From positions 1,376,001 to 1,440,000 of the forward strand of contig OZ242274.1 in assembly GCA_965207375.1 (NCBI GenBank): 64,000 nucleotides of DNA. The letters are read 5' to 3'. The first letter of the stretch is position 1. The number at the start of each line of letters is the position of its first letter. The translations under genes and the position numbers were made by a program. This document shows, one piece after another, positions 20,434-61,804 of the stretch. A model generated the notes under the pieces. It did not search any database. It was not told the origin of the DNA and worked only from the letters and a program-made list of their open reading frames with translations. Source of the DNA: Nitrosopumilaceae archaeon. Its GTDB lineage: Archaea; Thermoproteota; Nitrososphaeria; Nitrososphaerales; Nitrosopumilaceae.

Positions 20434-21114
20434 ATGGCAAGACAAAAACACTCTGAGGCCAAAATGCCATGGCTTTCCAAAATGACCTCAATGTCGCAGC
20501 CTATTTTTGCAGTCCCACTGCTTGGTCTAGTATCTACGTACCAAGCCTTGATAATTTTTGCCCTAGGTATTCCGTCTCTGTTTATTACAATGCATATAAC
20601 CGGTGAGATACACTTGGGTTTAGCACCGTTTTTGATTTTCACAATATTTGCAATGATCAGGCCTCCACTGATAAGCTATGAAGGCAGGATGATTGCTATA
20701 CTGTCATTTCATCTTTTCAAGGGTTCGTCAAAAAAATCAAAGAAAAAGTCTAAACAGAAAACAAAGGGTTCAGGATTTTTTGGAAAGGCAGGTGCCACAC
20801 CAGACATAACAGAACCAGCACCCGTACAAACCAAACCAGAAATCATGACAGTACAGGTACATGGAGACAATCTACAAGAAATATCCATGATGCTTTCACA
20901 TCGGGGCACACCGATACGACGTCGCAAGGTATGCATACTGCTTGACGGGGACCCGATTAAAACTGTAATATCCTCGGTATCAGGCGAGGTCCTAACAATT
21001 TTATCCAACGATCTATGTGTTGGAAATCGTACAATATCCATTGCAGAAATCTCCGGCGATACCATAGGGGAGACATTGATGTCTAGGGAGATAAAATTTG
21101 TACGTATATCTTAG
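20434..21114 (+). CDS. Membrane protein, PrgI/VirB3-like N-terminus
   Basis: Two TM helices followed by a basic/soluble domain; element-type promoter upstream. Confidence 0.5.
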   Translation: MARQKHSEAKMPWLSKMTSMSQPIFAVPLLGLVSTYQALIIFALGIPSLFITMHITGEIHLGLAPFLIFTIFAMIRPPLISYEGRMIAILSFHLFKGSSKKSKKKSKQKTKGSGFFGKAGATPDITEPAPVQTKPEIMTVQVHGDNLQEISMMLSHRGTPIRRRKVCILLDGDPIKTVISSVSGEVLTILSNDLCVGNRTISIAEISGDTIGETLMSREIKFVRIS

Positions 21115-23131
21115 TGTGCTTTTGCTTTGTGTAGCATTTACAGGTGGTTTAGTGCCAGTATTTGCATCCTCTGAACAGAACATGGCATCAGATGCATTGG
21201 CACAACAATCAAGATGGGACATATCTCCTGAAATACACGACACATACACATACAGAATATGTGAATCAGCCAAGACTTGTTATGATGCTGCATTTACTGT
21301 GATACACAGCACAAAACATACAGTTACCATGTCTGTGTCAATATCAGAAATACTTGGGGTATACCTTACAGGTACAGATGGCCCTTACAGATTATACGTA
21401 CCAACAGGATACGAATCACAGGATTCACCTACCATACACTATGCTGATTATACTGGAGAGCCGATACAGTTTGAAATTACATTTGATCCACAAGCCCATA
21501 AAATAATCTCTCATACTGCCCCCTACTCACATACGTATTTTCATTCAATCAAAAACACATTGTTTCTTTTGGGTGAGGGCATACGCATAGGGGACGGTAC
21601 CCTTCTAGAACATCCGCCTATACTTGCAGTAGGTGAAAGATGGAGCCGTGATAATGACGTAAATGTATACGTAATAGATACCGAGGGACACTATTTCTTT
21701 GAAGGGTTGCAATATGCTGGTTTGTTGTATATGGTACAATATTCCGACAGAACCGTACTTGCTGACTTTATAATATCTCCTGATACTCCACTCCCAATTG
21801 CAGCAGAGGTCACAGCAGATTATACTGAAATAAGTGAGGAAAAATACATTGACACACGATTCTGGTACAGACTGATAGATTCATCGATTATACCTAACCA
21901 ATCAAAAATGGTTTCTGATGTTACGCCAGATACAATCTTACCCGAACCGCTGTGCCTGTACAACAACATCCCAGTCAGTTGTCATGATCCTGGTACACCT
22001 GAAATAGTCCTGCCTGACCCGCCGATGGTACCTCATACACCAGAGGTTACCACAAACAAAACAGTCGATTTTACCGTATTGCCTCCGGAGATAATTACAA
22101 AAATCCTAAACAGTACAGAGTCAGAACTAGAGGAATTATTTGAATTGTTCCTGAAATATATTGGACAAAAGCCATCCTTTGAGATAACTCTGAATACAGA
22201 TTCAGACACATACACACATGGTGACGAAATCATATTCAGCGGTACAAGCTCTAGTGTAGTATCTGATACAGCCCAGATAATGATATACGATGTACACAAT
22301 GCAACTATTGCCTCTGTACCAGTTACAGGTATAGACGGTACATATTCTACCAGTATAGACACTAATGGTTGGGATGTACATGGTGTATTTGGCGCTACTA
22401 TATCACATGATACTCTAAAAAGTCAGGTATTCTTTGAAATAAAACCAGACGACAGGCGTGTAACAGTTGATGGCAGGTTGACAGATGGAATTGATACAGG
22501 AGATGGATATGTAGTAATACATCTAAAGGCGGGCTCTGCCACTGAGATACTAGTTACATTTTCACGCACCGTACTAGATTCTGTATCTGACGGCAAAACT
22601 GCACCGTTTGAGATACTAGTTGACAGTCAATCCGTACCGTATGATGATTTTAGTACGTCTGCTCACCGCATCATTGCAATTCCAAACATACCCACATTTG
22701 CACATATAGTGGAAATGTTTCCATTAGGTGTTGAAAAACAAGCATGTACAGGTAAAGCAGCATGCATATCAGGTGTACTAGCTGAGGTTATAGATGGGGA
22801 CACTATCCGGTTACAGGACGGCTCACGCATACGATTCACGCTCTCCTCAGCTCCAGAATTGACACAGTCTAGTGGTATACAGGCAAAGCAAGAGATTGCA
22901 AGTGTCTGTCCTGCAGATTCGGAGGTAACCATAGACGAGGATGACGGACAAAAATATGATAGTTTCGGTAGAACGATAGGTATAGTGTATTGTAACGGAA
23001 TCAATCTAAATTCACATCTGCTAGAATCAGGCTATGGTACAATATCTAAAGAATTTTGCAAAACAAGCGAGTTTGGTCTGCATGACTGGGCGATACAACA
23101 TGGCTGTCCCGGCCTGTCAGATGTACCTTGA
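21098..23131 (+). CDS. Secreted multidomain protein with C-terminal thermonuclease (SNase-like) domain
   Basis: Signal peptide; EVIDGDTIRL, IRF, APE, DSFGRTIG, LNSHLLESGYG motifs. Confidence 0.8.
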   Translation: MYVYLSVLLLCVAFTGGLVPVFASSEQNMASDALAQQSRWDISPEIHDTYTYRICESAKTCYDAAFTVIHSTKHTVTMSVSISEILGVYLTGTDGPYRLYVPTGYESQDSPTIHYADYTGEPIQFEITFDPQAHKIISHTAPYSHTYFHSIKNTLFLLGEGIRIGDGTLLEHPPILAVGERWSRDNDVNVYVIDTEGHYFFEGLQYAGLLYMVQYSDRTVLADFIISPDTPLPIAAEVTADYTEISEEKYIDTRFWYRLIDSSIIPNQSKMVSDVTPDTILPEPLCLYNNIPVSCHDPGTPEIVLPDPPMVPHTPEVTTNKTVDFTVLPPEIITKILNSTESELEELFELFLKYIGQKPSFEITLNTDSDTYTHGDEIIFSGTSSSVVSDTAQIMIYDVHNATIASVPVTGIDGTYSTSIDTNGWDVHGVFGATISHDTLKSQVFFEIKPDDRRVTVDGRLTDGIDTGDGYVVIHLKAGSATEILVTFSRTVLDSVSDGKTAPFEILVDSQSVPYDDFSTSAHRIIAIPNIPTFAHIVEMFPLGVEKQACTGKAACISGVLAEVIDGDTIRLQDGSRIRFTLSSAPELTQSSGIQAKQEIASVCPADSEVTIDEDDGQKYDSFGRTIGIVYCNGINLNSHLLESGYGTISKEFCKTSEFGLHDWAIQHGCPGLSDVP

Positions 23132-23216
23132 TGATACCAGAAAACCCCACCTCTCAGGAGCAAAAATCCCTGTCTAGATCTAATTATGAATTATTTCTCA
23201 TGATAACTACAAAATG

Positions 23217-23519
23217 TAATGCTTTCACAAATGTTATGAAACAGTATAGACAATTAAATTATTTTTGAAAAATAATGTAAGATTGTATAATTAATACCTT
23301 AGAATTTATCTAAAGGTTTTTAGATGATTGTATGTTATATTATAATATCCGTCTCCAAGGAATCGAACCTTGGCAACTGCAACTTCTAAGGGTCCGTTGG
23401 GAACCATCCAGACGGTGATTTTATAATGACATAAACATCATTTTAATTTAAATTATAACGAATAATACTAAAAATCCATTTTATGGAAAAATTCTAGTAT
23501 GTCTAATATCTGAGTCATG
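23217..23519. repeat. About 300-bp non-coding segment duplicated at 61352-61689
   Basis: Colinear similarity from taatgctttcacaa to gagtcatg. Confidence 0.85.
23348..23415 (-). ncRNA. tRNA-like structured RNA, copy 1 (6-bp acceptor, 6-bp T-stem, CTTAGAA loop)
   Basis: CCGTCT GGA-TGGT-TCC CAAC GGACC CTTAGAA GTTGCA GTTG CCAAGG-TTCGATT-CCTTGG AGACGG A; covaries with copy 2. Confidence 0.8.
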
Positions 23520-23641
23520 TTTTGGTGTCAGATATTACAAATTATGTTTAGAGATTTAGGTGTGGTCTATTAGTTTTGTCATACTTGTTGAGACAATTTT
23601 GGGCATTTTGGGGCTTAAATATTAAATGATATTGTGGTATC

Positions 23642-25256: not shown

Positions 25257-28200
25257 ATGTTTTACATACAAAAACAACAACAAATACAGCGTAAAATTAC
25301 TAGTTTAACATTAATGGCAATCATGGTTGCTGGTGGTATGACCTTTGCAGTACCAGGAATGACACCGGAGGCTTATGCTGCCAATGCAAACCTGTTTGTC
25401 TCCGCAGAAAACTCACTATTTGACAATTACATGGCAGGACCTCAAGTAATTGAGGTGGTAATAATTGATTCATCTATTTCTGATACTGATGAAAGCAAGG
25501 GAGAACCTGACGTTACAGTTAATGGCAACAACCTGAGAATGGTTCAAGCCACTGACGGTAACTGGTATGGTTACTTTGCTGATTATGCAATGGCAAAGTT
25601 AGCTGCTTCTGAACCTAATGGATTGAACTTTGGTGCAGGAGATGCAGAAGCTTCTGCTGATTCTATAGGTCTTGACACAATTGAAGCTGATGGACTCTTT
25701 TACAACGATAACAATAATGTCAACGTTATAAGAGAAGAAAAGGACGTAAACCAGAATAGAGTTGGTGTTGGTAATGGAACTAACGCAAATCCATATGGTG
25801 GTCAAATAGGCATCGATGAAGGTGCATGGCCATTCATCCAACTGTACAAACTAAGTCAAGGTGGCAATGTTGTGGTACAGTACAACAAGGGTGGTGACAC
25901 ACAAAGCACAATCCTAACCTTTGATACTGTTGATGACTATGCAGGTATAGAACTGGACAGAACTTCTTATCCACAAGGAGCACAAGTTCATGCAACTGTT
26001 ATTGATGTGTGGTTAAACATTGACCCAACTGACGAAGATTCATGGACGTTTAATACTGTAAATGGTACAGCATACTATCATGTCTATAATGACGATGATG
26101 GTGGAAGAGGTGATAACGATTCATTGAAACCCATTATCTTACTCGACTACACTAGCAATCATACAGTTAATTCTGTAGATGTTGGAAACTTGATGTGTTC
26201 AGATTGTGCCTTGAAATTAAATCCTAATGTTCAAGGTGATGATAAACACGTCATTACAATTCAGGACAATGCAGATTCTATAATTGTTAACAAAGGCGAT
26301 ACTGCCGATAAAGCAGATGCTTGGGTACGTGACGGTGTAGCAATTATAACGTTAGGTCAAGGCACTCAACCAGTTACTATCACAGAACAAGGACCTAACA
26401 GTGGAATCTTTGGTACTTATGACGAGTATGACCTATCTGTACTCAAAATCATCGATGATGCAGATAGAGACACGTTAGCTACTATCGATTACAATGATAG
26501 TCTAGTATCTGTCCTAGTCACTCACGCATTTGCTACAATTGACATTCAACCAGCATCTGACGTTTGGTACAGCGGTGAACTAATACCAGTCGTTCTTGTC
26601 GATGCTGATAATAACAAAAATAGTAGAGCAGACGAGGACATTAGATTAAGTGATCCTAGCTACAAAATAATTCCTAGTCTTAGGACTGGAGACCCAATTA
26701 CATTGGGTAGTGGAGTAGATAGTAACGGACAAATCACAGTGTACTATGACGGTATAGAAAAGAAAACAGATGTGAATGCATTCAGCGACAGGGCAATTCT
26801 AAATGATACTGTCCCTGACGGCACAGTAAGTTCAATACTAATCGATCTTGGTATTACCGGTGATGAATTAAAAGCCTCTTTGGTTGATACAACTGCTGAC
26901 AAAAACTACGGATACAACCTATTCAATTATGACATTAGTTCATTGCCTGAAGGCACTGTAAACATATCATTGGTTAACACCACAAACGGTGTATCAATCG
27001 ATGTTGATTTAGTTTGTGAAACATCAAGAAGTGGTCTAGAATTATTGAATGGTATTACTTGTGACCCACTAACAGAACCAACATCAATAGTAATTCCATC
27101 ACTACACTCCGATAGTGCTTACGAATCACAACACTTTGGAACAGCATTTGATACAATAGTTTCAGACTATAGCGTCACTTTTCCCAAAGTATTTAGCTCA
27201 CAAAAGCTAGACTTGGGAACTAATCCTATACAATCTGTACTAGATACAGGATCTATAGTCGATACTTTTGAACAGTTGAGAATTCTTAACGAAACCAGCA
27301 AGATCGGTACAGACGTTGGGGACATTTCCTTGTTAAGTTACTCTTCAACAGCACAATCATTTGCAAAACCAGGCGATGGTATATTTAGATTGACTATAGA
27401 TACCTCCCGTCAGGTGGAATTGAATAGCCCACAGACAGTATCATGTATTGACTGTGCGCTTAATTCATTTGGTGAAATCTTTGGACAAACAGTTCAGGTA
27501 CAATCAACACAATTATCTGATGCAGGTACAATCACAGATCTATTGCAAGTTCCAAACAATGACACCAAAGTAGGAATACTAATTGAATACCATAAAGACA
27601 ACGTTCGAACGTATCATGCAACCGATGCCGAGGCAGATCCAATCGTATTGGACTTTTTCGCATTTGGATTTGGTGATGACGGAAGAACAGCTAACCAAAT
27701 AGTCAGACTTGAATTGGAAGAATCTGGCGATAACACTGACACCTTTGAAGGCGGTCTTGAATACACCATGCTTAACCAACTCAATATTCTGGACGCATAT
27801 ACATACACCGGACTTGACCCTATATCTGATGAGCCAACATTTATCGTAATGGAGGATCTAACAGATGAGGATTCTCCTCGAGTCAATTATCTTGACCTGG
27901 GGGCAGACGGTGTATCAATACAGATTGCTGACCAACAAGAGGCACCATCACACTCTGGTGTGGTAGCACTTGATTCAGACAACTACAAGGTTGCTGATAC
28001 GGTGATTGTCACATTGACTGATGCTGACCTAAACGTGGACAGTGACTTGATTGATATATTCACTACAGTTGCACATGGACACGGTGGCATGTCTGATACG
28101 GTAGGTGAAGATGTAGAGTTTAATGGTGAATCCGTCAATATTGGTGGTTCTCCATTAGGACGATTACTTGACATTACCTTTGATGACCAGATATGGACTG

Positions 28201-30248
28201 TAAACGAATGTACTCCAATAGACGGATTTGATGACGGCTTGCACGATACAGGTTTCACACTAATTGAAACCGAGACTGCAAGTGGTGTCTTTACTGGTGC
28301 ATTTCAGATTCCAACAGAATATTGCCGAAACGATGCAAAATTCGTTGACGGTAAATATGTACGAGAATCTGTTATTGGTACTGACATTGAGGTAAACTAT
28401 GTCGACTTTAGAGACGCATCTGGCGAAACCATCGAAGTAGGTGATTCAGCAGGTGTACGACACAGCACCGGTTCAGTATCTCTTGACAGAACTGTTTATC
28501 CAGTTCCATTTGCTGAAAACACATTCAATTTGCATGCTTCAGCAGGCGATGACCAATACCTGCCAACAGGTGATGTAACAATTCACATTAGGGTTTCAGA
28601 TTCTGACTATAACATATCAGCCTCCGACGAAGATAAAATTGCAAGCGGTACAACGGGACCTGTAGAGGTTACTGTTTCAAGAGGACAAGCATCTAAAATT
28701 GTTGCAACAGCAGGCGCAGCAACTGCAAATGCTATTGCAAATGAGTATGGACCAATCACAGAGATTGCACCTGACGAGGGAATATTTGAAGCGGCTATTT
28801 CAATTAGTTACAAGGACGGTCCCACAAACGGTTGTCCAGAATACAACCCAGATGACGGACCTAACATATTCGCAGATGGATGTGTTCTACAGGGAGACAT
28901 TGTCACCGTAGAATATACAGATCCAACTGACGCATCGGGTGAACCAAACACTGTAACTGATTCAGCTACATTTGACTTGAGAAACTCCGTACTGCAATCT
29001 GACAAGCCAGTTTACATCATTGGAAGCGATATGATCTTGACTCTAATCGAGCCAGACTTTGATCTTGACAATGATGCAGCCGAGTCATATTCACTTGATC
29101 TAATCGAGTGGGATTCAGATGCTGCAATGGTTTCAATGGGCACATTGGGCGGTGCAAAATCCAATAATGGAAACGACTTTGATCCAGAACCATCTGATTT
29201 TAGAGAAACAGGCGACAGCACTGGAGTCTTCCAGGTTGTAATCGAAATTCCTGAAGAACTTGATGGTAACAAATTCAAAAGAGGTGAAGAAATTGAACTA
29301 GAGTATACTGATTGGGGCCCATCTGGTTCTAACTATGTTGGTGAAGCATATGACGACATTAATCTTACAATTTTCACATCAAACTTTGGTAGTACGGTGG
29401 AGCTAGACCAAAATGCCTACACTTGGACTGATAAGGTCTACATTACTATAGTGGCACCTGATCACAACTTTGATTCTGACTTGATAGATGAAATAGGTAA
29501 TACTGATGACGACCCAATAAGGATTGCAACTAAAAGTGCGGTTCTTGACAACTACAAGTTGGAAGAGACAGGCACTGACACTGGAATCTTTACTGGTGAA
29601 GTAATCCTTACAGGATTTGCACATGATGCTAATGGTGACGGCGAAACTGACGACTCAAACCCACGTACAGGTTACGGTAATGGTAACATTAAGGGCTTGG
29701 GTCCAACCAACGGATTCCTAGAAACTAAAGATAATGACGATCTCAGTGTATCCTTTGAATTTTCAGAGGATGAAATGGTAGTAGGATCAGCACTAATCAG
29801 ATGGAATATCGGTGAGGTTCAATGGCTTGAAGCAAGCTATGCATCTAGCGGTACAGGTGTAGTCAGAGTAATAGACCCAGACATGAATTTAAATCCAGAA
29901 TCAGTCGATAACTTTGAGATTGATGTCTGGTTAGATACACCTACCAGAGGTATTAACTTGACTGTAACTGAGACAAACCAGGCAACGGGAATCTTTGAGG
30001 GAACAGTATTCTTTACTGTGACTGACGAGTCTTCCGGACACAGACTGCAAGTCTCAGAAGGTGACACTGTCACTGCGGAATATACAGACCGCACACTACC
30101 TGAACCACACAATACATTAGATAAGCTTGACATTTTTGCAACAACACAGATTGACTCAATCATGCCTCCATTTGAGAGAGTACCAGATATCAACTTGAGA
30201 ATGGGTGATGCATTTAGCCACATGCTAGATAAGATTCTTCATCGTTAA
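25257..30248 (+). CDS. Nitrosopumilus-type S-layer protein (SlaA-like), C-terminally truncated
   Basis: RKITSLTLMAIMVAGGMTFAVPG, ANANLFVSAENS, GEPDVTVNG, repeated ETGxxTGxFxG; ends inside repeat B. Confidence 0.88.
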   Translation: MFYIQKQQQIQRKITSLTLMAIMVAGGMTFAVPGMTPEAYAANANLFVSAENSLFDNYMAGPQVIEVVIIDSSISDTDESKGEPDVTVNGNNLRMVQATDGNWYGYFADYAMAKLAASEPNGLNFGAGDAEASADSIGLDTIEADGLFYNDNNNVNVIREEKDVNQNRVGVGNGTNANPYGGQIGIDEGAWPFIQLYKLSQGGNVVVQYNKGGDTQSTILTFDTVDDYAGIELDRTSYPQGAQVHATVIDVWLNIDPTDEDSWTFNTVNGTAYYHVYNDDDGGRGDNDSLKPIILLDYTSNHTVNSVDVGNLMCSDCALKLNPNVQGDDKHVITIQDNADSIIVNKGDTADKADAWVRDGVAIITLGQGTQPVTITEQGPNSGIFGTYDEYDLSVLKIIDDADRDTLATIDYNDSLVSVLVTHAFATIDIQPASDVWYSGELIPVVLVDADNNKNSRADEDIRLSDPSYKIIPSLRTGDPITLGSGVDSNGQITVYYDGIEKKTDVNAFSDRAILNDTVPDGTVSSILIDLGITGDELKASLVDTTADKNYGYNLFNYDISSLPEGTVNISLVNTTNGVSIDVDLVCETSRSGLELLNGITCDPLTEPTSIVIPSLHSDSAYESQHFGTAFDTIVSDYSVTFPKVFSSQKLDLGTNPIQSVLDTGSIVDTFEQLRILNETSKIGTDVGDISLLSYSSTAQSFAKPGDGIFRLTIDTSRQVELNSPQTVSCIDCALNSFGEIFGQTVQVQSTQLSDAGTITDLLQVPNNDTKVGILIEYHKDNVRTYHATDAEADPIVLDFFAFGFGDDGRTANQIVRLELEESGDNTDTFEGGLEYTMLNQLNILDAYTYTGLDPISDEPTFIVMEDLTDEDSPRVNYLDLGADGVSIQIADQQEAPSHSGVVALDSDNYKVADTVIVTLTDADLNVDSDLIDIFTTVAHGHGGMSDTVGEDVEFNGESVNIGGSPLGRLLDITFDDQIWTVNECTPIDGFDDGLHDTGFTLIETETASGVFTGAFQIPTEYCRNDAKFVDGKYVRESVIGTDIEVNYVDFRDASGETIEVGDSAGVRHSTGSVSLDRTVYPVPFAENTFNLHASAGDDQYLPTGDVTIHIRVSDSDYNISASDEDKIASGTTGPVEVTVSRGQASKIVATAGAATANAIANEYGPITEIAPDEGIFEAAISISYKDGPTNGCPEYNPDDGPNIFADGCVLQGDIVTVEYTDPTDASGEPNTVTDSATFDLRNSVLQSDKPVYIIGSDMILTLIEPDFDLDNDAAESYSLDLIEWDSDAAMVSMGTLGGAKSNNGNDFDPEPSDFRETGDSTGVFQVVIEIPEELDGNKFKRGEEIELEYTDWGPSGSNYVGEAYDDINLTIFTSNFGSTVELDQNAYTWTDKVYITIVAPDHNFDSDLIDEIGNTDDDPIRIATKSAVLDNYKLEETGTDTGIFTGEVILTGFAHDANGDGETDDSNPRTGYGNGNIKGLGPTNGFLETKDNDDLSVSFEFSEDEMVVGSALIRWNIGEVQWLEASYASSGTGVVRVIDPDMNLNPESVDNFEIDVWLDTPTRGINLTVTETNQATGIFEGTVFFTVTDESSGHRLQVSEGDTVTAEYTDRTLPEPHNTLDKLDIFATTQIDSIMPPFERVPDINLRMGDAFSHMLDKILHR

Positions 30249-31150: not shown

Positions 31151-31364
31151 ATGTTTCGTAATTAGAAAATCACACCTAACAAGAGCAAAAATTTCAGATA
31201 TTACATTTAGACGATAGGATTCCATACCTTGAACATCATTATAAAAACACATTTAGAAAGATTTGAATCATAAACAGAAATTAAAAAAAACAGGCTAGTT
31301 CAGTAGGTAGCCTTTGTTGCCTGAAAGTCAAATTTATTACGTATAATAAGTATAAAATCCTTGT

Positions 31365-31438
31365 GGGCCTGTGGTTCAGCTTGGTAGAACGATTGCCTGA
31401 AAGCCAATAGGTCACGGGTTCAAATCCCGTCAGGTCCA
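31365..31438 (+). tRNA. tRNA with GAA anticodon (Phe), atypical body
   Basis: GGGCCTG/CAGGTCC acceptor, GTTC/GAAC D-stem, ATTGC-CTGAAAG-CCAAT (C31:C39 mismatch), ACGGG-TTCAAAT-CCCGT. Confidence 0.85.
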
Positions 31439-31540
31439 CATTTTACTTTCCGTACAAATTCCTTGATCGACTTGAGATAGAGTTTGTACCTGATTTTGTA
31501 CTGATTTGCCCCCTTTTATACAAAATAATTCTATGTCACC

Positions 31541-34884: not shown

Positions 34885-36722
34885 TTCGTTACATTTTGTA
34901 TATTGCTATTTTTAGTATCATTCCTGCAGCATATGGTTCTTGCGAAAGTATTGAAGAGTGCAAGTTTGCAAATCTGTTTCCAGAACCCGAGGCCAAACTG
35001 TACTTGCCCACTGAATCTGTCACGATATCTCATGGCAAGACTGCACATGTCTTGATTGCAGGCACCCTACCAGAAGAAAAGGTGGCAAAACGCCCCATTT
35101 TGATAGACATAACAGGTCCGGATGAGAAAACCGTATCCCTTGAGATACTCTCTACAGAACAAGGCTATTTCCAAACGTTACATAGTATAACTGCTGACAG
35201 ACATGCAGAGGGAATATACAAGGTAGAGTCATGGTTTGCAGAAACTGAAACAGATACTGATGAGGAGATAATTTCAGAGCTTGCAGAAGGTGAGTTTCAT
35301 GTTACGGTTCTAGGTGATACAGCAGACCACATTGTTATAATTGCTGATACTGTAGGAAGGGCTTGTCTTGAAGATGTCAATACATGTTATGAAAATCCCG
35401 ATGCTCAAATTGTAGTTGGAAACACGATACAGTGGATAAATGAATCTACAGAAGCTCATCATATTCGGGCTACAGCAATTGGCTCAAATGACACAGACAT
35501 GTCTATCGTACAGTCAACATTAGAATCCGGATACTTTGATACTGGTGTCATACCGCCACACATGTCTGAAACGATTCTATTTGATACACCGCTTGTCGCA
35601 ATATACTCTTGTATGTTTCATCCTTGGATGGAAGGTACTATACATGTGGCGACACTACCAGATGAACAAACAGACATCCCAGAAACCATACTTGATGTAA
35701 AACCGGAACGTGAAACGCCTGGAAGTTCTGAACCCCGCATCGTCTTTGATGTTACAAATACACGATACCACAATGCAGGAGATAAGATACAAATTAGTGT
35801 ACACTATGTCAATACAAGGTCATCTAGTGTAAGTGTTGATTTACTAGATTCAGATGGTATTGAAATAGCAGACACATATGCTTCAAGAGAAGAAGACACC
35901 TCCACATTTGAAATCCTCACACAGCCCACATGGGAACCCGGAAAATACACAGTAGTGGTAGACCCGCGTGGCAAAACCAAATCCTCTGAAATTACTATAA
36001 CTATTGATACTCATGATATTGTATGTGTGGAAGACACCATATCCAACATAACAAAGAAACAGCACAGCAAGAACTGTTACGCAGGAATAATTGATAAAAT
36101 CATTGATGCAGACACCTTGTCAATATCAAAAAAATACAACTCACTTAGTGTAGCAAATCCCGGAAACAACGATACTCATCGAGATGTATCAAAACAGTTC
36201 CTTGAAGAAACATGTCCGCCGGGTAGTATAGCTATAGTAGACATGGACAGACAAATGACTGCTGATTCGCGCTCACTTGCAGGAGAGAGATCACAGGGGG
36301 CATATTCTGCTGTATACTGTAATTCTAATCCTACTAGTGTAAACCAGCAGATGATAAATGCTGGACTAGCAGAGATAGATCCCATCGGCTGTCTGACATC
36401 TGAATTTGAGTGGAGTATTTGTCCTGTTATACATGAAATCATAGAAACGATACCAACAGAATTAGAACCAGAAAACAACTGTATGATTGCCCTGGTGTCA
36501 TACGGTACGGATCTTGCATATCCGGTACAATTATTGCGTGAATTTCGAGGTGATATCATAACTGACCCGTTTATGAAAGTCGGTCTTGATTCCATACACC
36601 AGGCATACTATACCGTATCCCCACATATCGTTGATATCATGACTGACATGCCCGAACTAAAGATTGTGGCATATTCGATACTATACGTACCGATATCTGT
36701 GGCAGGTGCATATCTTGAGTGA
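34881..36722 (+). CDS. Secreted protein with cupredoxin, degenerate thermonuclease and CFI-box-CTERM domains
   Basis: HHI...YSCMFHPWMEG copper site; KIIDADTL...VNQQMINAGLA; CMIALVSYGTDLAYPVQLLREFRG. Confidence 0.8.
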   Translation: MIRYILYIAIFSIIPAAYGSCESIEECKFANLFPEPEAKLYLPTESVTISHGKTAHVLIAGTLPEEKVAKRPILIDITGPDEKTVSLEILSTEQGYFQTLHSITADRHAEGIYKVESWFAETETDTDEEIISELAEGEFHVTVLGDTADHIVIIADTVGRACLEDVNTCYENPDAQIVVGNTIQWINESTEAHHIRATAIGSNDTDMSIVQSTLESGYFDTGVIPPHMSETILFDTPLVAIYSCMFHPWMEGTIHVATLPDEQTDIPETILDVKPERETPGSSEPRIVFDVTNTRYHNAGDKIQISVHYVNTRSSSVSVDLLDSDGIEIADTYASREEDTSTFEILTQPTWEPGKYTVVVDPRGKTKSSEITITIDTHDIVCVEDTISNITKKQHSKNCYAGIIDKIIDADTLSISKKYNSLSVANPGNNDTHRDVSKQFLEETCPPGSIAIVDMDRQMTADSRSLAGERSQGAYSAVYCNSNPTSVNQQMINAGLAEIDPIGCLTSEFEWSICPVIHEIIETIPTELEPENNCMIALVSYGTDLAYPVQLLREFRGDIITDPFMKVGLDSIHQAYYTVSPHIVDIMTDMPELKIVAYSILYVPISVAGAYLE

Positions 36723-36729
36723 AATTGTT

Positions 36730-38604
36730 ATGCGACCAAAACCTTCAAGCAGATTTCGTACCTGTCTGTCTATATCATGTATCTGTGGCATTGTTATAAT
36801 TATCTTATTTTCCAAAGGCACATACAGTGACGTGGTACTGTCTTGTATCCTTGCGGTATCTGCTGTATCTGCACTACTTGTGCCGACTAGACGGAACAAA
36901 AAGAAATACGTGTCAGCCGACCGCAGGGTAACAGTACGAAAAATAGACTTTCCAAGGGGTTGGAAAATCTTTATCATTTTAGAAAACAAACTCCCCTTTA
37001 TCAAAAAACTAAGACAATACAATGATGGTATCATAAGCAGTATTGCCCCATCTGCAGGAATCCCATATGATACGGAATCTGCTGCCACCAAAAGCACCAG
37101 ATTTGCCATTGTATCAATCATACCCTGTGTGATATCTGGCATATTTTTGACCCAGAATCTACATTTGGGGTTTATAGGAATTGCAGTAGCACCGCTTTTA
37201 GTATTTTTTGCCCCGTTTGTAAAATTAAAATTTGCAGTACAGGAGCGCCGTGGCAAGATAGAAGAAGAGATGGCATACTTTCTAAGTTACGTCAATATAA
37301 TGCAAAGTGTTGGCCGTGGTCTGTATCAGGCATTTGATGAAATCCGCAATCAAAGAATATTTCCTGCAATGGAAAAAGACGCAAGAGAGCTAGTCAGACG
37401 TGTCAACATGCTTGGAAACAGTCAGAAACAGGCACTGTCTGACTATGCCTCACATCATCCATCTGAATCATTTCGTGCCTTTGTATCTGGGTATATGGCA
37501 AAGATGTCTAGTATCGGAAATGTACCTGCATATACAGAAGCCAAGGCAAAATATTTCTTTGAAGAATACATGTCTGCCTGGGAGCGATATGAAAAAAGTG
37601 CACAAGAAATATTTTCAGCAGTTTTGATGATTTCAATTATTTTGCCCATGATGATGGCATTTAATTCCATGATGGGGACCGCTTCTACTGCAAGCATTCT
37701 GATATTTGCAGGCACCCTCATCTCGCCTCTAGTGGCTGCAGTCATGATCTCTGCTTTGAACTCATCACAGCCAGCAACAGGACATCGAATCAAAATGGCA
37801 TGGCCCTCATTTGCAGCAGGTGGTATAGTAGGAATTACATGTATGGTATCAGGACTAGATACTGCCACATCTCTGGCACTAGGCGTTCTAGTTGGTGCAA
37901 TAGTAAACTATGTCACCGTACGCCCACAGCTTGCACAAATCCATGCAATAGATGCAATGATTCCTGAATTTATGCGAGATGTCACTGAAATGTCAAAGAC
38001 AGGTACCGGAATAAACCAGATAATTATAAAACAGTCAGGCAACTATACGGGCGGCTTTAATTCCATGCTACAAGATATTGCAGTAAAAATCCGTGCAGGA
38101 AGAACCTTTGCGTCAGCCGCTCGAGAAATAAAATCAGAATCAACACATGTAAGATTTATCATGTTTTTGCTATCAAAGGCACAAAGTACTGGTGGTGGCT
38201 CACCTTCATTGTACCTTGATATCACAGATTTTGTCACAAAGATACACCAGACAAAGACAAAAATTGTAAAGGGCCTAACAATGCTGTCAGGTATAGTATA
38301 CTTTTCACCGTTTATGATGTTAGGTATCACTCACATGATGGTTGCAATATTTGCAACTGATACTAGTACCAGTACAAATTCTATGGCATTTGACTTGTCC
38401 ACATTTGGTAGTATCGATGAATCAATCATAGACGGGATATCATTAATGGCCGTATGTACTACTGCACCGATGGCAGTAGTTGCCTCCAAGGTGTCTAGTT
38501 TTACTGTCAAAAACACGCTACCTGTGGCTGTAACTGCTGTAACTACCATTTTGGCAATACATCTTACACCTGTAATTATTGCAATGTTTGGGTTTGGTGG
38601 CTAG
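36730..38604 (+). CDS. Type IV pilus platform protein (TadC/FlaJ, T2SS-F family)
   Basis: Two T2SSF repeats (IEEEMAYFLSYV...; IDAMIPEFMRDVTE...G) separated by TM helices. Confidence 0.85.
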   Translation: MRPKPSSRFRTCLSISCICGIVIIILFSKGTYSDVVLSCILAVSAVSALLVPTRRNKKKYVSADRRVTVRKIDFPRGWKIFIILENKLPFIKKLRQYNDGIISSIAPSAGIPYDTESAATKSTRFAIVSIIPCVISGIFLTQNLHLGFIGIAVAPLLVFFAPFVKLKFAVQERRGKIEEEMAYFLSYVNIMQSVGRGLYQAFDEIRNQRIFPAMEKDARELVRRVNMLGNSQKQALSDYASHHPSESFRAFVSGYMAKMSSIGNVPAYTEAKAKYFFEEYMSAWERYEKSAQEIFSAVLMISIILPMMMAFNSMMGTASTASILIFAGTLISPLVAAVMISALNSSQPATGHRIKMAWPSFAAGGIVGITCMVSGLDTATSLALGVLVGAIVNYVTVRPQLAQIHAIDAMIPEFMRDVTEMSKTGTGINQIIIKQSGNYTGGFNSMLQDIAVKIRAGRTFASAAREIKSESTHVRFIMFLLSKAQSTGGGSPSLYLDITDFVTKIHQTKTKIVKGLTMLSGIVYFSPFMMLGITHMMVAIFATDTSTSTNSMAFDLSTFGSIDESIIDGISLMAVCTTAPMAVVASKVSSFTVKNTLPVAVTAVTTILAIHLTPVIIAMFGFGG

Positions 38605-59211: not shown

Positions 59212-61272
59212 TTAATTACTTTCTAATTGCTTCAAAATCTCTGCAATCTTTGGCCATAGTGGACTAGAGTATTTCTTGCTATTTGCTTCAGCTTCTGCTG
59301 CAGTCGTTGGATTATCATGTTGTATCACCCCAAATGCTGCTAGTACCTTATTCCATCTGTCAACGTGATCATGACCGTGATGTGTCATAGATGCCATGTA
59401 CTTTACATCCTCAATTAGTTCTGGGTCTATTGCAGGTGTTGGTTCAGGTTCTGGCTCAATTTGTGGTATGTCTTGTATTGTATCTGGTATTGAATCTGGT
59501 ATTGAATCTGGTATTGAATCTGGTATAGGCTGCGGTTCTGTTGGTTCTGCGTTAATACCTGTAGGTGTATCTGATTCTAACTCGCTTAATGCTGTTGCAA
59601 TTCTTGACCATAATGGGCCTCCGTATGTATCCGCATTGACTTGAGCCTCTGTAGCAGTCATTTTACCTTGATCCAAATGTCCAAATGCTGCTAATACCTT
59701 ATTCCAAGTCTCATGATCATTAGGGCCATTTGATATTGATTTACCGTGTTCTAATAGAGATTTTGTATATCTTACTTCATTGAGTAAAGGTGTATCAACA
59801 TAACCTGGTACAGCAATTAATGGCTCTGGTGTTATCTCGTTACTCAAGTTACGGTCATATTTTGCAGATGCAGTATCATGAGTGCTGCCGCCTGTTCTTG
59901 GAATCTGACGCTCTAGAAATTCAAAATATTCTGCCCTTATATCATCAGTGCATGTTATTATTGTTTTAGATGTAGTAGCACACCGTTCAGCACCGGTTGG
60001 ATCAATCATGCCGTTGTGAAATATTGAAGTTTGAGTATGTATTGGATAGACAAAGGCATCTGAACTACCAAACGTTGGAATGTTTATCCAGTCATAGTTT
60101 ACAGCAAATCCGATTGTACCAACACGTCCAGCAAAACCAAGATCGGCAAGTCCCTCAGTTACAAATTCATTTGCAAGTTGTCTTGCTTTAGATGGACTGG
60201 CTCCCTCTGGAATTGCAATTGCATTGCTTATACTGTCTGCAATTGCATTGCTTATCTCCTCTGTGTAATGAGTTTTTGTAAAATGCAAACCTTCCATGCT
60301 ATTTTTTACACGTTCTTTAATTTTAGGCTGTATGTTATTTTGGTGATCCTGGTCAGAATTGGCAAAGTTACCTCGAAGTTCATTATATACGAGACTCACA
60401 AGAGTGGGTTTTGAAATATCTGCTATAGTCTGAGGATTTACGAGTTTTGCATTTGAACCGACTACAGTAGCATAACTCCCACCACTGGGGTATGTTTTGT
60501 CATAGTTGACCAAAGTTCCATGTTCATTCCATGTTATAGTCAAGTCTTTACCATCTGGAAATATTTCATAATAACTCTTTTGGATTCCGTTATCATGCCA
60601 TGTAGTTTTATTTTGAGGTAATAGGAAATTACCGTTTTCATCTGTTCTTGTGGTGTTTTCTGCCTTCAAGTCACGTTTGATAACTTCTGTTGCAATGTTT
60701 CCGCCCTCTTTGAATTTTATTTCACTTGTAGATTTACCATCCTCAAGATTGATTATTTCTTTGAGTGTGCCATCTTCATGATGTTCTAGTTTCATAAACA
60801 CGCCTTGATTTGGGTTACTGTTAGGATCATCTTCATCTGAAACACCTAGAATGCTTTTTGCCTCATATAGAATAGATTCTTTTAGAGTGCCATTATGATG
60901 GAAAATGTCAATTCTTTCTATTCCGTCATGGTAATTTTGGCCAGGTGGTACAGTGTATGTGTCTGTAGCTCTGCTATATTGTACGCGTGTAGCAGTATCA
61001 AACTGTAATTGATTGTCATAATAGTTAATGCATGTGTAGGTTATACCATCAGAGTCGGTATAAACACCCAATTGGCCACGTTGTCCTCCTACCATATCCA
61101 AGAAAGTGAAACGTACTGTACCGTCTGGGTTGTAAATTGATCTTGGGACTATTTCCGCTCCAAACTGCGCCATCACTTTGTCACTTTTACATAACCATTC
61201 ATCATCAGTTGGAGAATGGGCCTCTGCAAAGTCTGGTGTAAATAGTAATAACAATCCTGCGGCAGATACCAT
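59212..61272 (-). CDS. Secreted protein with MORN-like stretches and two WNKVLAAFG modules
   Basis: Signal ...AEA; HHNGTLKE/HEDGTLKE/HDNGIQK; C-terminal module nearly identical to that of 49008-51023; (PDSI)n linker. Confidence 0.8.
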   Translation of the reverse strand: MVSAAGLLLLFTPDFAEAHSPTDDEWLCKSDKVMAQFGAEIVPRSIYNPDGTVRFTFLDMVGGQRGQLGVYTDSDGITYTCINYYDNQLQFDTATRVQYSRATDTYTVPPGQNYHDGIERIDIFHHNGTLKESILYEAKSILGVSDEDDPNSNPNQGVFMKLEHHEDGTLKEIINLEDGKSTSEIKFKEGGNIATEVIKRDLKAENTTRTDENGNFLLPQNKTTWHDNGIQKSYYEIFPDGKDLTITWNEHGTLVNYDKTYPSGGSYATVVGSNAKLVNPQTIADISKPTLVSLVYNELRGNFANSDQDHQNNIQPKIKERVKNSMEGLHFTKTHYTEEISNAIADSISNAIAIPEGASPSKARQLANEFVTEGLADLGFAGRVGTIGFAVNYDWINIPTFGSSDAFVYPIHTQTSIFHNGMIDPTGAERCATTSKTIITCTDDIRAEYFEFLERQIPRTGGSTHDTASAKYDRNLSNEITPEPLIAVPGYVDTPLLNEVRYTKSLLEHGKSISNGPNDHETWNKVLAAFGHLDQGKMTATEAQVNADTYGGPLWSRIATALSELESDTPTGINAEPTEPQPIPDSIPDSIPDSIPDTIQDIPQIEPEPEPTPAIDPELIEDVKYMASMTHHGHDHVDRWNKVLAAFGVIQHDNPTTAAEAEANSKKYSSPLWPKIAEILKQLESN

Positions 61273-61351
61273 GAAAACTATACCGTGTAATGTATGGGGG
61301 GGGGTTCCTAATGTAGCATCTACACGCGGCAGATACCATGAAAACTAGAGA

Positions 61352-61689
61352 TAATGCTTTCACAAAGATTATCAAACAGTACAGATAATTAAGTTATTCT
61401 GTAAAATAACGTAAGATTGTATAACTAATACCTTAGAATTTCTTATATCTGTTAACATTTACAATTTATCTAAAAGTTTTTAGATGATTGTGTGTTATTA
61501 ATAACATCCGCTTCTAGGGAATCGAACCCTAGCAACGACATCTTCTAAGGGCGTGTTGGGTACCAACCAAGCGGTGATTTTATAATAATACAAACGCTAT
61601 TTTAATAATTTTAATTCATAACGAATAACGCTAAAAATCTGTTTTTTAATGGAAAAATTCTATTATGTCTAATATCTCATAGAGTCATG
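61352..61689. repeat. Second copy of the 300-bp non-coding segment
   Basis: Colinear with 23217-23519, with a short insertion. Confidence 0.85.
61507..61574 (-). ncRNA. tRNA-like structured RNA, copy 2
   Basis: CCGCTT GGT-TGGT-ACC CAAC ACGCC CTTAGAA GATGTC GTTG CTAGGG-TTCGATT-CCCTAG AAGCGG A. Confidence 0.8.
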
Positions 61690-61804
61690 GGCCTGTTTTG
61701 ATTTTGCCTGCATAAAATTAAGGCTAGATGTTAAACTCCCTCAATTTTTGGTTATTTTGAAAGTTTCTCGATTAAGGAATTTGTGCGATATTAGGCAAAA
61801 AGTA

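What the first reader, a model, noticed from the sequence alone, without database searches (positions are those of the whole stretch)
23348..23415. Non-canonical 6/6 tRNA-like RNA in two covarying copies
Seen: two 67-nt minus-strand sequences (23349-23415 and 61508-61574) fold into a four-way junction with no linker bases. They have a 6-bp acceptor, a 3-bp D-stem with TGGT loop, a long irregular arm (CAAC/GTTG plus inner pairs) capped by CT-TAG-AA, a 6-bp T-stem with canonical TTCGATT loop, and an A discriminator. Every difference outside the anticodon-like arm is compensatory: 2 pairs in the acceptor (CCGTCT/AGACGG vs CCGCTT/AAGCGG), 1 in the D-stem and 2 in the T-stem. Known: real tRNAs are mostly 7/5 with a variable loop, while tRNA mimics keep the 12-bp stack and the D/T elbow. 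Inference: a selected, element-borne tRNA mimic (decoy for anticodon nucleases, RNase P/Z-processed regulator, or UAG-anticodon adaptor), not a decayed tRNA.
Basis: partly seen in the sequence, partly recalled or inferred. Interest (0 to 1): 0.88.

Follow-up and report, generated by a model that had tools for sequence, protein, structure and literature searches.

The report
Miniature 6/6 tRNA-like RNA gene pair
An ammonia-oxidising archaeon carries two diverged copies of a shrunken, oddly proportioned tRNA-like gene whose stems have changed only in matching pairs, so its folded shape is being kept by selection, although what it does is still unknown.

Summary
Two 69-nt minus-strand copies (23416-23348 and 61575-61507) differ at 16 positions. 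Fifteen lie in paired columns, 12 form six doubly compensatory pairs, and no pair is broken. None of 200,000 random placements of 16 substitutions matched this.

ARAGORN and the Rfam tRNA model do not call it. Only ARAGORN's permissive mitochondrial mode does, as Leu(UAG). A covariance model finds only these two copies in the genome and none in about 300 related genomes. Motif scans of public collections found no relative.

The host is an ammonia-oxidising archaeon. The copies lie in an IS-rich region with conjugative-element genes. A normal tRNA-Leu(UAG) exists elsewhere.

Best reading: a selected, tRNA-derived small RNA matured by tRNA-processing enzymes and acting as a mimic, not a standard decoder. 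Expression and function are untested, because no RNA runs were available.

The parts
23348..23416 (-). tRNA-like gene copy A. 69 nt: 5' A, 67-nt fold, discriminator A.
   Evidence: Sequence; alignment A2; 97.0 bits to model R1; ARAGORN -mt calls it mtRNA-Leu(tag), 68 nt.
61507..61575 (-). tRNA-like gene copy B, 69 nt.
   Evidence: Sequence; alignment A2; 97.6 bits to R1; ARAGORN -mt calls it mtRNA-Leu(tag).
23440..23447 (-). A/T box ATTAAAAT at -32..-25 from the first acceptor base of copy A. Candidate archaeal TATA box.
   Evidence: Same octamer at the same distance in both copies. Host tRNA genes show A/T boxes at about -35..-24, judged by eye. That it is a promoter is inferred.
61599..61606 (-). 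The same ATTAAAAT box at -32..-25 upstream of copy B.
   Evidence: Inferred promoter element.
23308..23325 (-). Conserved hairpin AUCUAAA-AACC-UUUAGAU, 23 nt downstream of copy A.
   Evidence: Read. Present in both copies; only the loop differs, by one base.
61468..61485 (-). The same hairpin downstream of copy B.
23297..23304 (-). UUCUAAGG, the exact reverse complement of loop bases CCUUAGAA of the tRNA-like RNA, on the same strand downstream of copy A.
   Evidence: The 8-mer and its complement occur 74 times in 8.6 Mb of both strands, about 0.002 expected per 250 nt.
61431..61438 (-). The same UUCUAAGG downstream of copy B.
   Evidence: The two paralogous 5' regions that lack the tRNA-like gene (C1:1760837 and C1:1969653) read UUCAAGG instead.
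23140..23540 (-). Conserved block around copy A: about 125 nt upstream, the gene, about 70 nt, then about 170 nt shared with the 5' regions of a paralogous secreted-protein family. In copy A the block ends without that gene.
   Evidence: 75% identity over 358 columns to the copy-B block.
61272..61700 (-). Conserved block around copy B. It runs into the start codon (61272) of the 686-aa gene.
59212..61272 (-). 686-aa ORF on the same strand, 234 nt downstream of copy B. It has no Pfam or PHROG hit and belongs to a multi-copy family with a hydrophobic N-terminus.

Best explanation
The two loci are diverged paralogous copies of an independently transcribed, tRNA-derived small RNA gene that is kept by selection for its fold.

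SHOWN
- The part that is thermodynamically robust and holds four of the six compensatory pairs is the tRNA 'top half'. It is a 12-bp coaxial acceptor/T helix split 6+6 instead of 7+5, with a canonical UUCGAUU T loop and an unpaired A discriminator.
- The loops are invariant between the copies: UGGU, CCCUUAGAAG and UUCGAUU.

INFERRED
- The RNA is transcribed from an A/T box at -32..-25.
- It is cut by RNase P at the 5' side and by tRNase Z at the 3' side. It has no adjacent T-run terminator and no encoded CCA.
- It receives CCA and then acts as a tRNA mimic rather than an ordinary decoder.
- The top half supplies recognition by tRNA-handling proteins. The invariant CCCUUAGAAG loop on a weak, mismatch-containing stem is the specificity element. 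It would be read by a protein (for example an anticodon-directed nuclease or modification enzyme, the decoy model) or by pairing with the UUCUAAGG that lies 44-70 nt downstream in both copies.

My odds: about 0.85 that it is a selected structured tRNA-like RNA gene, and about 0.4 that it is a non-decoding mimic as opposed to a working tRNA or a cis element.
For: Covariation:
- 6 doubly compensatory pairs and 0 broken pairs among 16 differences. None of 200,000 random substitution sets gave 6 or more, and P(no broken pair) = 5e-6.
- 15 of 16 differences fall in the 48 paired columns and 1 in the 21 unpaired columns.

Robust top half:
- Acceptor and T pairs have ensemble probabilities of 0.92-0.999.

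Strand:
- The T-loop consensus and a G.U pair in copy B (24-36) are read only on the minus strand.

Not a standard tRNA:
- No call by standard ARAGORN.
- No RF00005 hit at gathering score, nor even at E<=10 in 401-nt searches.
- The anticodon-stem register has P<0.06 in both copies and a mismatch in both (C.U and C.A).
- A normal 88-nt tRNA-Leu(UAG) exists at C1:795870.
- CUA is not enriched in the surrounding genes.

Gene-like signals:
- The same ATTAAAAT box at the same distance in both copies.
- No ORF of 70 aa or more covers either copy.

Loop complement:
- UUCUAAGG downstream in both copies but not in the two paralogous 5' regions without the gene.
Against: - No transcript evidence at all: no RNA run holds the stretch. 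This is a blank, not a negative.
- There are only two sequences, plus an incompletely seen strain variant in run X7. The fold of the D/anticodon half is therefore unresolved.
- The 7-nt loop with U33 and A37, the canonical T loop and A73 are also what a working tRNA would have. ARAGORN's mitochondrial mode reads both copies as a complete cloverleaf.
- Folding energy is not exceptional against shuffles (z = -0.85 and -1.47).
- The 8-nt loop complement has about a 1-2% chance of occurring after allowing for the windows I looked at, and the two copies are not independent.
- No partner protein, nuclease or defence system was identified next to either copy.
Confidence: 0.45

Rival explanations
1. 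It is a working, miniaturised decoding tRNA with anticodon UAG. It would have a conventional cloverleaf: a 6-bp acceptor, GG at positions 8-9, a 4-bp D stem, a 3-nt D loop, a 5-nt variable loop and a 6-bp T stem. It would be charged by a host synthetase and used on the ribosome. Its acceptor end (C1-G72 plus A73) is the set I recall as the main identity elements of archaeal TyrRS, so it could even carry Tyr to CUA codons. Otherwise it would supply Leu.
For: - ARAGORN -mt draws this cloverleaf for both copies.
- This fold keeps 5 compensatory pairs.
- The loop CUUAGAA has U33 and A37, and the T loop is canonical.
- Only 1 of 68 ARAGORN tRNAs in the genome starts with C, namely tRNA-Tyr, which also ends GGGA.
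- CUA is the commonest Leu codon on C1, at 21.9%.
- The 3' half aligns loosely with type-I tRNAs of the genome, with AGUUG in the place of their AGGUC variable loop.
Against: - The Rfam tRNA model gives nothing at E<=10, and standard ARAGORN gives nothing.
- ARAGORN -mt is permissive: with -ps80 it reports 14 'genes' in 542 nt.
- Strict fold 2 is about 4.7 kcal/mol worse than fold 1 in both copies, and its D stem has an A.A mismatch in copy A.
- A 3-nt D loop lacks the G18-G19 elbow contacts.
- The anticodon stem has 2 non-pairs in copy A and 1 in copy B.
- It lacks the long variable arm that, as I recall, archaeal LeuRS needs.
- Putting Tyr at the commonest Leu codon would be highly toxic.
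- A normal tRNA-Leu(UAG) exists.
- No host tRNA stands out as a parent: the best global scores are 42 for tRNA-Glu and 36 for tRNA-Tyr.
Confidence: 0.25
2. It is a cis-acting part of the leader of the downstream secreted-protein gene. A tRNA-like 'punctuation' signal would be cut by RNase P and tRNase Z to define the mRNA 5' end. Its loop would pair with UUCUAAGG in the leader to control the gene.
For: - Copy B is on the same strand, 234 nt upstream of the 686-aa ORF start. Copy A keeps the same leader block but lost the gene.
- There is no T5 run until about 75 nt downstream of copy A.
- The exact 8-nt loop complement and a conserved hairpin lie in the leader of both copies.
- From memory (not read here): tRNA-like processing signals exist upstream of haloarchaeal 5S rRNA and as plant mitochondrial t-elements. 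One search listed only the title and abstract start of PMC1920247, which concerns t-elements.
Against: - At least two other family members (C1:1760837 and C1:1969653) have the same proximal 5' region without any tRNA-like gene, so the family's own promoter lies downstream of it.
- Copy A has been kept intact, with full compensation, although its downstream gene is gone.
- The gene has its own A/T box at tRNA-gene distance.
Confidence: 0.15
3. It works at the DNA level, as a tRNA-derived attachment or transfer-origin site of a mobile element. The inverted repeats would be kept for a recombinase or relaxase.
For: - Complementarity is also preserved in single-stranded or cruciform DNA.
- Passages of PMC6563490 say thaumarchaeal elements commonly integrate in tRNA genes: 39 of the 68 elements with defined sites.
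- The region holds conjugation-type genes and many tRNA-Ala-derived repeats.
- The two copies are direct repeats 38.2 kb apart.
Against: - The copies share no long identical core. The longest identical runs are about 11-16 nt and the block is 75% identical overall, unlike fresh att sites.
- Each copy has matched 5' and 3' acceptor strands, so they are not recombinant hybrids.
- No integrase domain was found in the 46 window ORFs scanned with Pfam, though not all ORFs were scanned.
- A G.U pair and the T-loop consensus point to RNA.
Confidence: 0.07
4. They are decaying tRNA pseudogenes, or a chance resemblance.
For: - The genome holds several degenerate tRNA-like sequences, such as C1:823190 and C1:1233023.
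- No detector of real tRNAs accepts it.
Against: - 6 compensatory pairs and no broken pair among 16 differences; none of 200,000 simulations gave 6 or more compensatory pairs.
- All three loops are invariant.
- In a strict scan of the whole genome, these are the only two true sequences with a full 6/6 acceptor/T geometry. Four hits came up, and the other two are a normal tRNA-Asn and one unrelated sequence.
Confidence: 0.03

Closest known systems
Canonical elongator tRNA (Rfam RF00005)
   Same: Four-armed fold. A 12-bp acceptor/T coaxial stack. T loop UUCGAUU. A 7-nt anticodon-like loop with U33 and A37. Unpaired discriminator. An upstream A/T box at the same distance as in host tRNA genes.
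   Different: The stack is split 6/6 instead of 7/5. The length is 67-68 nt. There are either no linkers and no variable loop (fold 1), or a 3-nt D loop (fold 2). The anticodon stem carries a conserved mismatch. There is no RF00005 hit even at E<=10 and no standard ARAGORN call.
Non-canonical natural tRNAs with a re-partitioned acceptor branch: allo-tRNAs (8/4, 9/3), selC*-type and tRNA-Sec (8/5, 9/4). Sources: abstract of PMC5389517 from the search listing and passages of the review PMC7609411.
   Same: They keep a 12- or 13-bp acceptor/T stack while moving the boundary between the two stems. tRNA-Sec also has a 4-nt UGGU D loop and no base between the D and anticodon stems in the Rfam consensus. 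[quoted passage not shown]
   Different: Those tRNAs lengthen the acceptor and shorten the T stem, whereas this one does the opposite. They are bacterial, 85-115 nt, and have a long variable arm. There is no RF01852 hit here. The outline and the passages returned for '6 bp', '12 bp' and 'tRNA-like' in PMC7609411 mention no 6/6 form; I did not read the whole text.
Reduced metazoan mitochondrial tRNAs
   Same: Short length, a tiny D loop and a type-I Leu anticodon. ARAGORN's mitochondrial mode calls both copies mtRNA-Leu(tag).
   Different: This is a chromosomal locus of an ammonia-oxidising archaeon. The T loop is fully canonical, unlike most reduced mitochondrial tRNAs. That ARAGORN mode is permissive.
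tRNA mimics processed by RNase P and RNase Z (mascRNA/menRNA, RF01684; plant mitochondrial t-elements; the tRNA-like element before haloarchaeal 5S rRNA). These are recalled from memory, apart from the listing.
   Same: An acceptor/T minihelix with a degenerate lower half. Position upstream of another transcript on the same strand (copy B).
   Different: Only a sub-threshold RF01684 match, and only for copy B (14.7 bits against a gathering score of 42.5). Processing was not tested. The anticodon-like loop is strictly conserved here.

Membership tests
Canonical tRNA (RF00005 / ARAGORN standard) | Scores above threshold with the general tRNA covariance model or detector. | tested here: not met
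   No RF00005 match at gathering score or at E<=10 in 401-nt searches around each copy. ARAGORN standard finds only tRNA-Phe at 31365 in the window.
Canonical tRNA (RF00005 / ARAGORN standard) | 7-bp acceptor stem and 5-bp T stem. | tested here: not met
   6 and 6 pairs in both copies. Position 7 would be G opposite G66.
Canonical tRNA (RF00005 / ARAGORN standard) | T loop U54-U55-C56-R57-A58 and a 7-nt anticodon loop with U33 and R37. | tested here: met
   UUCGAUU and CUUAGAA are invariant in both copies.
Canonical tRNA (RF00005 / ARAGORN standard) | Aminoacylation and use in translation. | not testable with these tools
   No RNA or biochemical data. No RNA run holds the locus.
tRNA-Sec / allo-tRNA (RF01852; 8/5, 9/4, 8/4, 9/3) | Acceptor stem of 8-9 bp, a shortened T stem and a long variable arm. 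| tested here: not met
   6-bp acceptor, 6-bp T stem and no long arm. No RF01852 match in the window. The RF01852 hits are unrelated bacterial loci that share only a short motif.
mascRNA-menRNA tRNA-like RNAs (RF01684) | Score at or above the family's gathering score. | tested here: not met
   Copy B scores 14.7 bits against 42.5 (E = 3.2). Copy A is not listed.
Metazoan mitochondrial-type tRNA | Detected by ARAGORN -mt as a complete reduced cloverleaf. | tested here: met
   Both copies are called mtRNA-Leu(tag), 68 nt. The mode is permissive and the locus is not organellar, so this describes the shape and does not establish membership.
Selected structured RNA (generic criterion) | Compensatory substitutions beyond chance, with no disruptive ones. 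| tested here: met
   6 doubly compensatory pairs and 0 broken; none of 200,000 simulations matched. Slid-partner controls give 0-1. Only two sequences are available.
Integrative-element att site | An identical core repeat at both ends of an element, with a recombinase nearby. | tested here: not met
   The blocks are 75% identical with no long identical core. No integrase domain was found in the 46 ORFs scanned. The ORF scan was not exhaustive.

The most novel reading that the evidence does not exclude
A previously undescribed architectural class of natural tRNA. It has a 6/6 acceptor/T split, and its 'D stem' is rebuilt from the 22-25 strand and the variable-loop strand, which frees a GG-bearing mini-hairpin for the elbow. 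It is carried by archaeal conjugative-element DNA. It would be either charged by a host synthetase, as an orthogonal or mistranslating adaptor with a Tyr-type C1-G72/A73 acceptor end and a Leu UAG anticodon, or serve as an anti-defence decoy for an anticodon-directed nuclease.
Probability: 0.15. Interest if true: 0.85.

Novelty: new variant of a known kind. Interest (0 to 1): 0.62.

Why it matters
Natural tRNAs and tRNA mimics that depart from the 7/5 acceptor/T layout are few (8/5, 9/4, 8/4, 9/3). Each one has taught something about how processing enzymes, synthetases and the ribosome measure a tRNA, and several became tools for genetic-code engineering.

A 6/6 form would extend that series in the opposite direction. 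It would also be the first such case from an ammonia-oxidising archaeon, a group whose small RNAs and mobile elements are hardly studied.

The evidence for selection is unusually clean for just two sequences. The claim is also cheap to test with a Northern blot or small-RNA sequencing of one culture. If the RNA proves to be an element-borne decoy or a mis-charging adaptor, it would bear on conflicts between archaeal mobile elements and their hosts.

Tried and rejected
Homolog searches that found nothing useful:
- Model R1 against 150 family genomes, 150 class genomes and 4 genus genomes gave 0 matches outside the own genome. The two large searches used Infernal's stricter filters.
- BLAST of the 381-nt block against 60 relatives gave one weak 52-nt match in the A/T-rich upstream part (G025, E = 6e-4) and none to the gene.
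- The motif CCCAACNNNCCCTTAGAAGNNNNNGTTG gave 0 hits in viral, genome and metagenome collections.
- The motif CCCTTAGAAGN{8,14}GGTTCGATTCC gave 9 metagenome and 5 genome loci and 0 viral loci. Eight of the 14 are tRNA-Sec-family genes, named as Nitrospirota or Thermodesulfovibrionales MAGs for three of the four genome-contig records among them. In these the motif sits in the long variable arm. The others score 13-34 bits to R1 against 97 for the real copies. I rejected all of them as unrelated.
- The motif TGGTNCCCAACN{18,30}GGTTCGATTCC in viral contigs gave one ordinary tRNA-Met inside a phage tRNA cluster. Rejected.
- blastn in distant mode against plasmids and phages gave no match.

RNA evidence:
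- No RNA holder was listed for the stretch, so expression is simply unknown.
- Laying contigs of four coded runs showed that run X7, from another study, holds a copy-B-like variant over 23360-23511. It carries B-type letters at columns 5, 6, 10, 15, 22 and 23, and a U at column 24.
- The table omitted 14 further differences, so the variant could not be reconstructed or used for covariation.
- Parts of the stretch without cover in the other runs say nothing.

Origin from a particular host tRNA: global alignment to 68 ARAGORN tRNAs gave no clear parent.

Tandem related elements: I first thought the two copies marked two related 37-kb elements. There is no protein similarity between the two neighbourhoods and no DNA similarity beyond the block, so I dropped the idea.

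Other odd tRNA-like genes of this architecture: genome scans for 6/6, 5/7, 8/4, 9/3 and unannotated 7/5 minihelices found no further convincing member.

Codon supply: CUA is not enriched in the surrounding genes.

Supplementary files of papers were not consulted; Table S2 of PMC6563490, which lists att sites, might bear on the tRNA-Ala-derived repeats.
Full report
WHAT IS THERE

On the minus strand, window 23416-23348 (copy A) and 61575-61507 (copy B) align over 69 columns without gaps. Each copy has the following parts:
- a 5' A;
- a 6-bp acceptor stem (CCGUCU/AGACGG in A, CCGCUU/AAGCGG in B);
- the stretch GG(A/U)UGGU(U/A)CC;
- CAAC;
- a 5-position irregular stem closing the loop CUUAGAA;
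- one unpaired base;
- GUUG;
- a 6-bp T stem with loop UUCGAUU;
- an unpaired A.

Fifty-three of 69 columns are identical.

IS IT MORE THAN CHANCE?

Fifteen of the 16 differences lie in the 48 paired columns, and one lies in the 21 unpaired columns. Twelve differences form six doubly compensatory pairs:
- acceptor: 5-65 and 6-64;
- T stem: 45-61 and 47-59;
- small hairpin: 10-15;
- anticodon-like stem: 22-38.

The remaining changes turn G.G into C-G, turn A-U into G.U, leave one mismatch a mismatch, and alter the bulge. No existing pair is broken.

I placed 16 random substitutions on copy A 200,000 times. No trial reached six compensatory pairs, and the fraction leaving no pair broken was 5e-6. 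Sliding the 3' partners by one to three columns gives 0-1 compensatory pairs against 6.

Raw identity of the gene (77%) is about the same as that of the surrounding 350-nt block (75% including gaps). It is therefore the pattern of change, not slow change, that shows constraint.

Folding energy alone is unremarkable (z = -0.85 and -1.47).

WHICH FOLD?

The acceptor and T stems are unambiguous, with ensemble pair probabilities of 0.92-0.999. The other half has two solutions.

- a 3-bp hairpin with a UGGU loop;
- CAAC paired to GUUG, stacked on the anticodon-like stem;
- no linker bases.

Fold 2 is what ARAGORN's mitochondrial mode draws:
- GG as positions 8-9;
- a 4-bp D stem, (A/U)UGG with CCAA;
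- a 3-nt D loop;
- a 5-nt variable loop, (A/C)GUUG.

Fold 1 has six compensatory pairs and energies of -18.9 and -20.4 kcal/mol. Strict fold 2 has five compensatory pairs, an A.A mismatch in copy A, and energies of -14.1 and -15.7 kcal/mol. The minimum-energy structure is fold 1 for copy A and a fold-2-like D hairpin for copy B.

In fold 1 the UGGU loop could offer the two G residues that normally touch the T loop. The CAAC/GUUG helix takes the place of the D stem on top of the anticodon stem, so the overall proportions of a tRNA would be kept. That last point is my inference.

The register of the anticodon-like stem is supported by covariation (22-38, 24-36) but has P<0.06 thermodynamically. 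Two sequences cannot settle this.

WHAT THE DETECTORS SAY

- Standard ARAGORN finds only a tRNA-Phe-like gene at 31365 in the window.
- Rfam at gathering scores finds only that same gene.
- In 401-nt searches around each copy at E<=10, the general tRNA model does not appear at all. The best entries are far below threshold. One is an antisense match to a plastid leader built on a tRNA-like shape (20.7 bits against 65.7). The other, for copy B only, is mascRNA-menRNA (14.7 bits against 42.5).
- ARAGORN with a relaxed threshold finds copy B with a poor acceptor.
- ARAGORN's metazoan-mitochondrial mode calls both copies 'mtRNA-Leu(tag)', 68 nt. That mode is permissive: with a lowered threshold it reports 14 genes in 542 nt.

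DISTRIBUTION

A covariance model built on fold 1 gave the following results:
- 97.6 and 97.0 bits for the two copies, and nothing else in the 4.3-Mb genome;
- nothing in 4 genomes of the same genus;
- nothing in 150 genomes of the family;
- nothing in 150 genomes of the class.

Three motif scans of public viral, genome and metagenome collections returned either nothing or unrelated tRNAs that share a short motif. These were tRNA-Sec-family genes (named as Nitrospirota or Thermodesulfovibrionales MAGs where titles were given), one GC-rich tRNA-like sequence and a phage tRNA-Met.

Plasmid and phage collections gave no match.

A contig of a coded run from another study carries a copy-B-like variant, but I could not see its whole sequence.

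A strict scan of the genome for 6/6 minihelices gave four hits. Two are the copies, one is a normal tRNA-Asn and one is an unrelated sequence. Scans for other splits found no further family.

CONTEXT

The genome encodes archaeal AmoA (382 bits) and has intron-bearing tRNA genes. The host is therefore an ammonia-oxidising archaeon. Its relatives have 1-3-Mb genomes.

The window is rich in transposases (IS66, rve/IS240 and DDE_Tnp_1) and in repeats.

Each copy sits in a conserved block of about 350 nt. The block has three parts:
- about 125 nt upstream, which include the octamer ATTAAAAT at -32..-25 in both copies. This is the distance at which host tRNA genes show A/T boxes (by eye);
- the gene itself;
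- a downstream stretch whose last 170 nt or so are shared with the 5' regions of a multi-copy family of large proteins with no Pfam or PHROG hit, whose homologous start regions elsewhere in the genome read as a hydrophobic N-terminus.

Copy B is followed 234 nt later by such a gene on the same strand (59212-61272). Copy A keeps the leader but not the gene. At least two other family members have the leader without any tRNA-like gene.

The protein genes around the two copies are otherwise unrelated.

Copy B lies between two direct repeats of a tRNA-Ala-derived gene (window 31365 and C1:1444064, 36.7 kb apart). These repeats bracket TadC-like, VirB4/HerA-like, prepilin-peptidase and ParM-like genes. 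Passages of PMC6563490 list this gene set as typical of thaumarchaeal integrative-conjugative elements. That copy B is element-borne is thus a reasonable inference. For copy A it is weaker.

A SMALL EXTRA

The loop bases CCUUAGAA are the exact reverse complement of UUCUAAGG, which lies 44 nt (copy A) or 70 nt (copy B) downstream on the same strand. The two leaders without the gene read UUCAAGG there.

The 8-mer and its complement occur 74 times in 8.6 Mb of both strands. Its presence within 250 nt has a chance of about 0.002, or about 0.01-0.02 after allowing for the windows I would have accepted. The two copies are not independent. I treat this as a lead.

HOW IT MOST LIKELY WORKS

The shown facts are selection on the fold, a robust tRNA top half, invariant loops, and failure to qualify as a standard tRNA.

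From established knowledge, an acceptor/T minihelix with a T loop and a discriminator is the substrate feature that RNase P, tRNase Z and the CCA-adding enzyme read. This is recalled, not tested here. From that I infer a small RNA that is matured like a tRNA.

Three points count against a decoding role:
- the weak, mismatch-bearing anticodon stem;
- the existence of a normal 88-nt tRNA-Leu(UAG);
- no excess of CUA codons nearby.

Hence my preference for a non-decoding mimic whose invariant loop is the specificity element.

The decoding rival stays alive:
- the loop has the right form;
- the acceptor end (C1-G72 and A73) is shared with only one of 68 predicted tRNAs, tRNA-Tyr. I recall this as the main identity set of archaeal TyrRS.

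The cis-leader rival is weakened because copy A is kept intact without its gene, and because other family members lack the element.

The DNA-site rival is weakened by the lack of an identical core, by matched acceptor strands in each copy, and by a G.U pair.

Decay or chance is excluded.

COMPARISON AND NOVELTY

Known departures from the 7/5 layout lengthen the acceptor stem: 8/5, 9/4, 8/4 and 9/3. My sources are the abstract of PMC5389517 in the search listing, and the outline and selected passages of PMC7609411.

I found no 6/6 form in what I read. My two searches for tRNA-like RNAs in ammonia-oxidising archaea or archaeal processing signals listed nothing similar. This is not a full literature survey.

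I file it as a new variant of a known kind (non-canonical tRNA or tRNA mimic), not as a member of any named family.

VERDICT

- Observation: confirmed.
- Selection on structure: strongly supported.
- Family membership: none.
- Function: open.
- Interest: moderate to high. It is limited by there being two copies in one genome and no expression data.

Noticed in passing
window 31257-31468 (gene at 31365-31439, +); also C1:1341225, 1355322, 1444064, 1974998 (anticodon GAA) and C1:234286, 1233023 (anticodon AAG): A family of 70-76-nt type-I tRNA genes. Their acceptor and T arms match the host tRNA-Ala(UGC), including G3.U70 and A73, but their anticodon loops read GAA (Phe) or AAG (Leu). Each has a partial D-arm plus anticodon-arm duplicate about 35 nt upstream. 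In the GAA copies the duplicate carries the same anticodon-stem variant as the gene. All share a TATAAA(A/G)AT leader and a conserved downstream block. They could be att-site debris of elements that target tRNA-Ala, or alanine-identity tRNAs with foreign anticodons.
   Followed up: partly
window 31365 to about 68064 (C1:1407365-1444136): Two of those tRNA-Ala-derived genes are direct repeats 36.7 kb apart. They bracket a TadC/T2SSF-like gene (36664-38604), a VirB4/HerA/TrwB-like ATPase (38579-41455), a prepilin peptidase (58144-58815) and a ParM/actin-like gene (62549-63427). This looks like an integrative-conjugative element interrupted by IS copies.
   Followed up: partly
genome contigs C2, C3, C4 (0.43, 0.78 and 0.93 Mb): Together these contigs hold only about 50,000 codons in ATG ORFs of 300 aa or more. 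C1, of similar total size, holds 358,000. They carry their own odd tRNA clusters: several Arg(CCU/UCG) and Thr genes. Coding density under code 11 is far too low for ordinary archaeal DNA. Another genetic code, another organism, or very unusual elements are all possible.
   Followed up: no
window about 61180-61272 (-); L007 1595-1680; L008 1595-1680: The start regions of the large secreted-protein family contain a tandem duplication of the start-codon segment, separated by a run of 9 C residues in L007 and L008. This would be a candidate slipped-strand on/off switch.
   Followed up: no
L020, L022, L023, L025, L028-L031 (bacterial MAG and metagenome contigs): 115-nt tRNA-Sec-family genes (RF01852, 51-59 bits), in Nitrospirota or Thermodesulfovibrionales MAGs where record titles name the organism. 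The three alignments shown have a GCA (Cys-type) anticodon and a very long variable arm. Standard ARAGORN misses them.
   Followed up: no
window 21098-23131 (+): A 677-aa ORF converging on copy A ends in a staphylococcal-nuclease domain (Pfam E = 2e-4; PHROG endonuclease 2.7e-7). The rest of the ORF has no family match.
   Followed up: no
window 25257-30248 (+): A 1663-aa ORF with no Pfam hit has four or five paralogs on C1 at 77-81% DNA identity.
   Followed up: no
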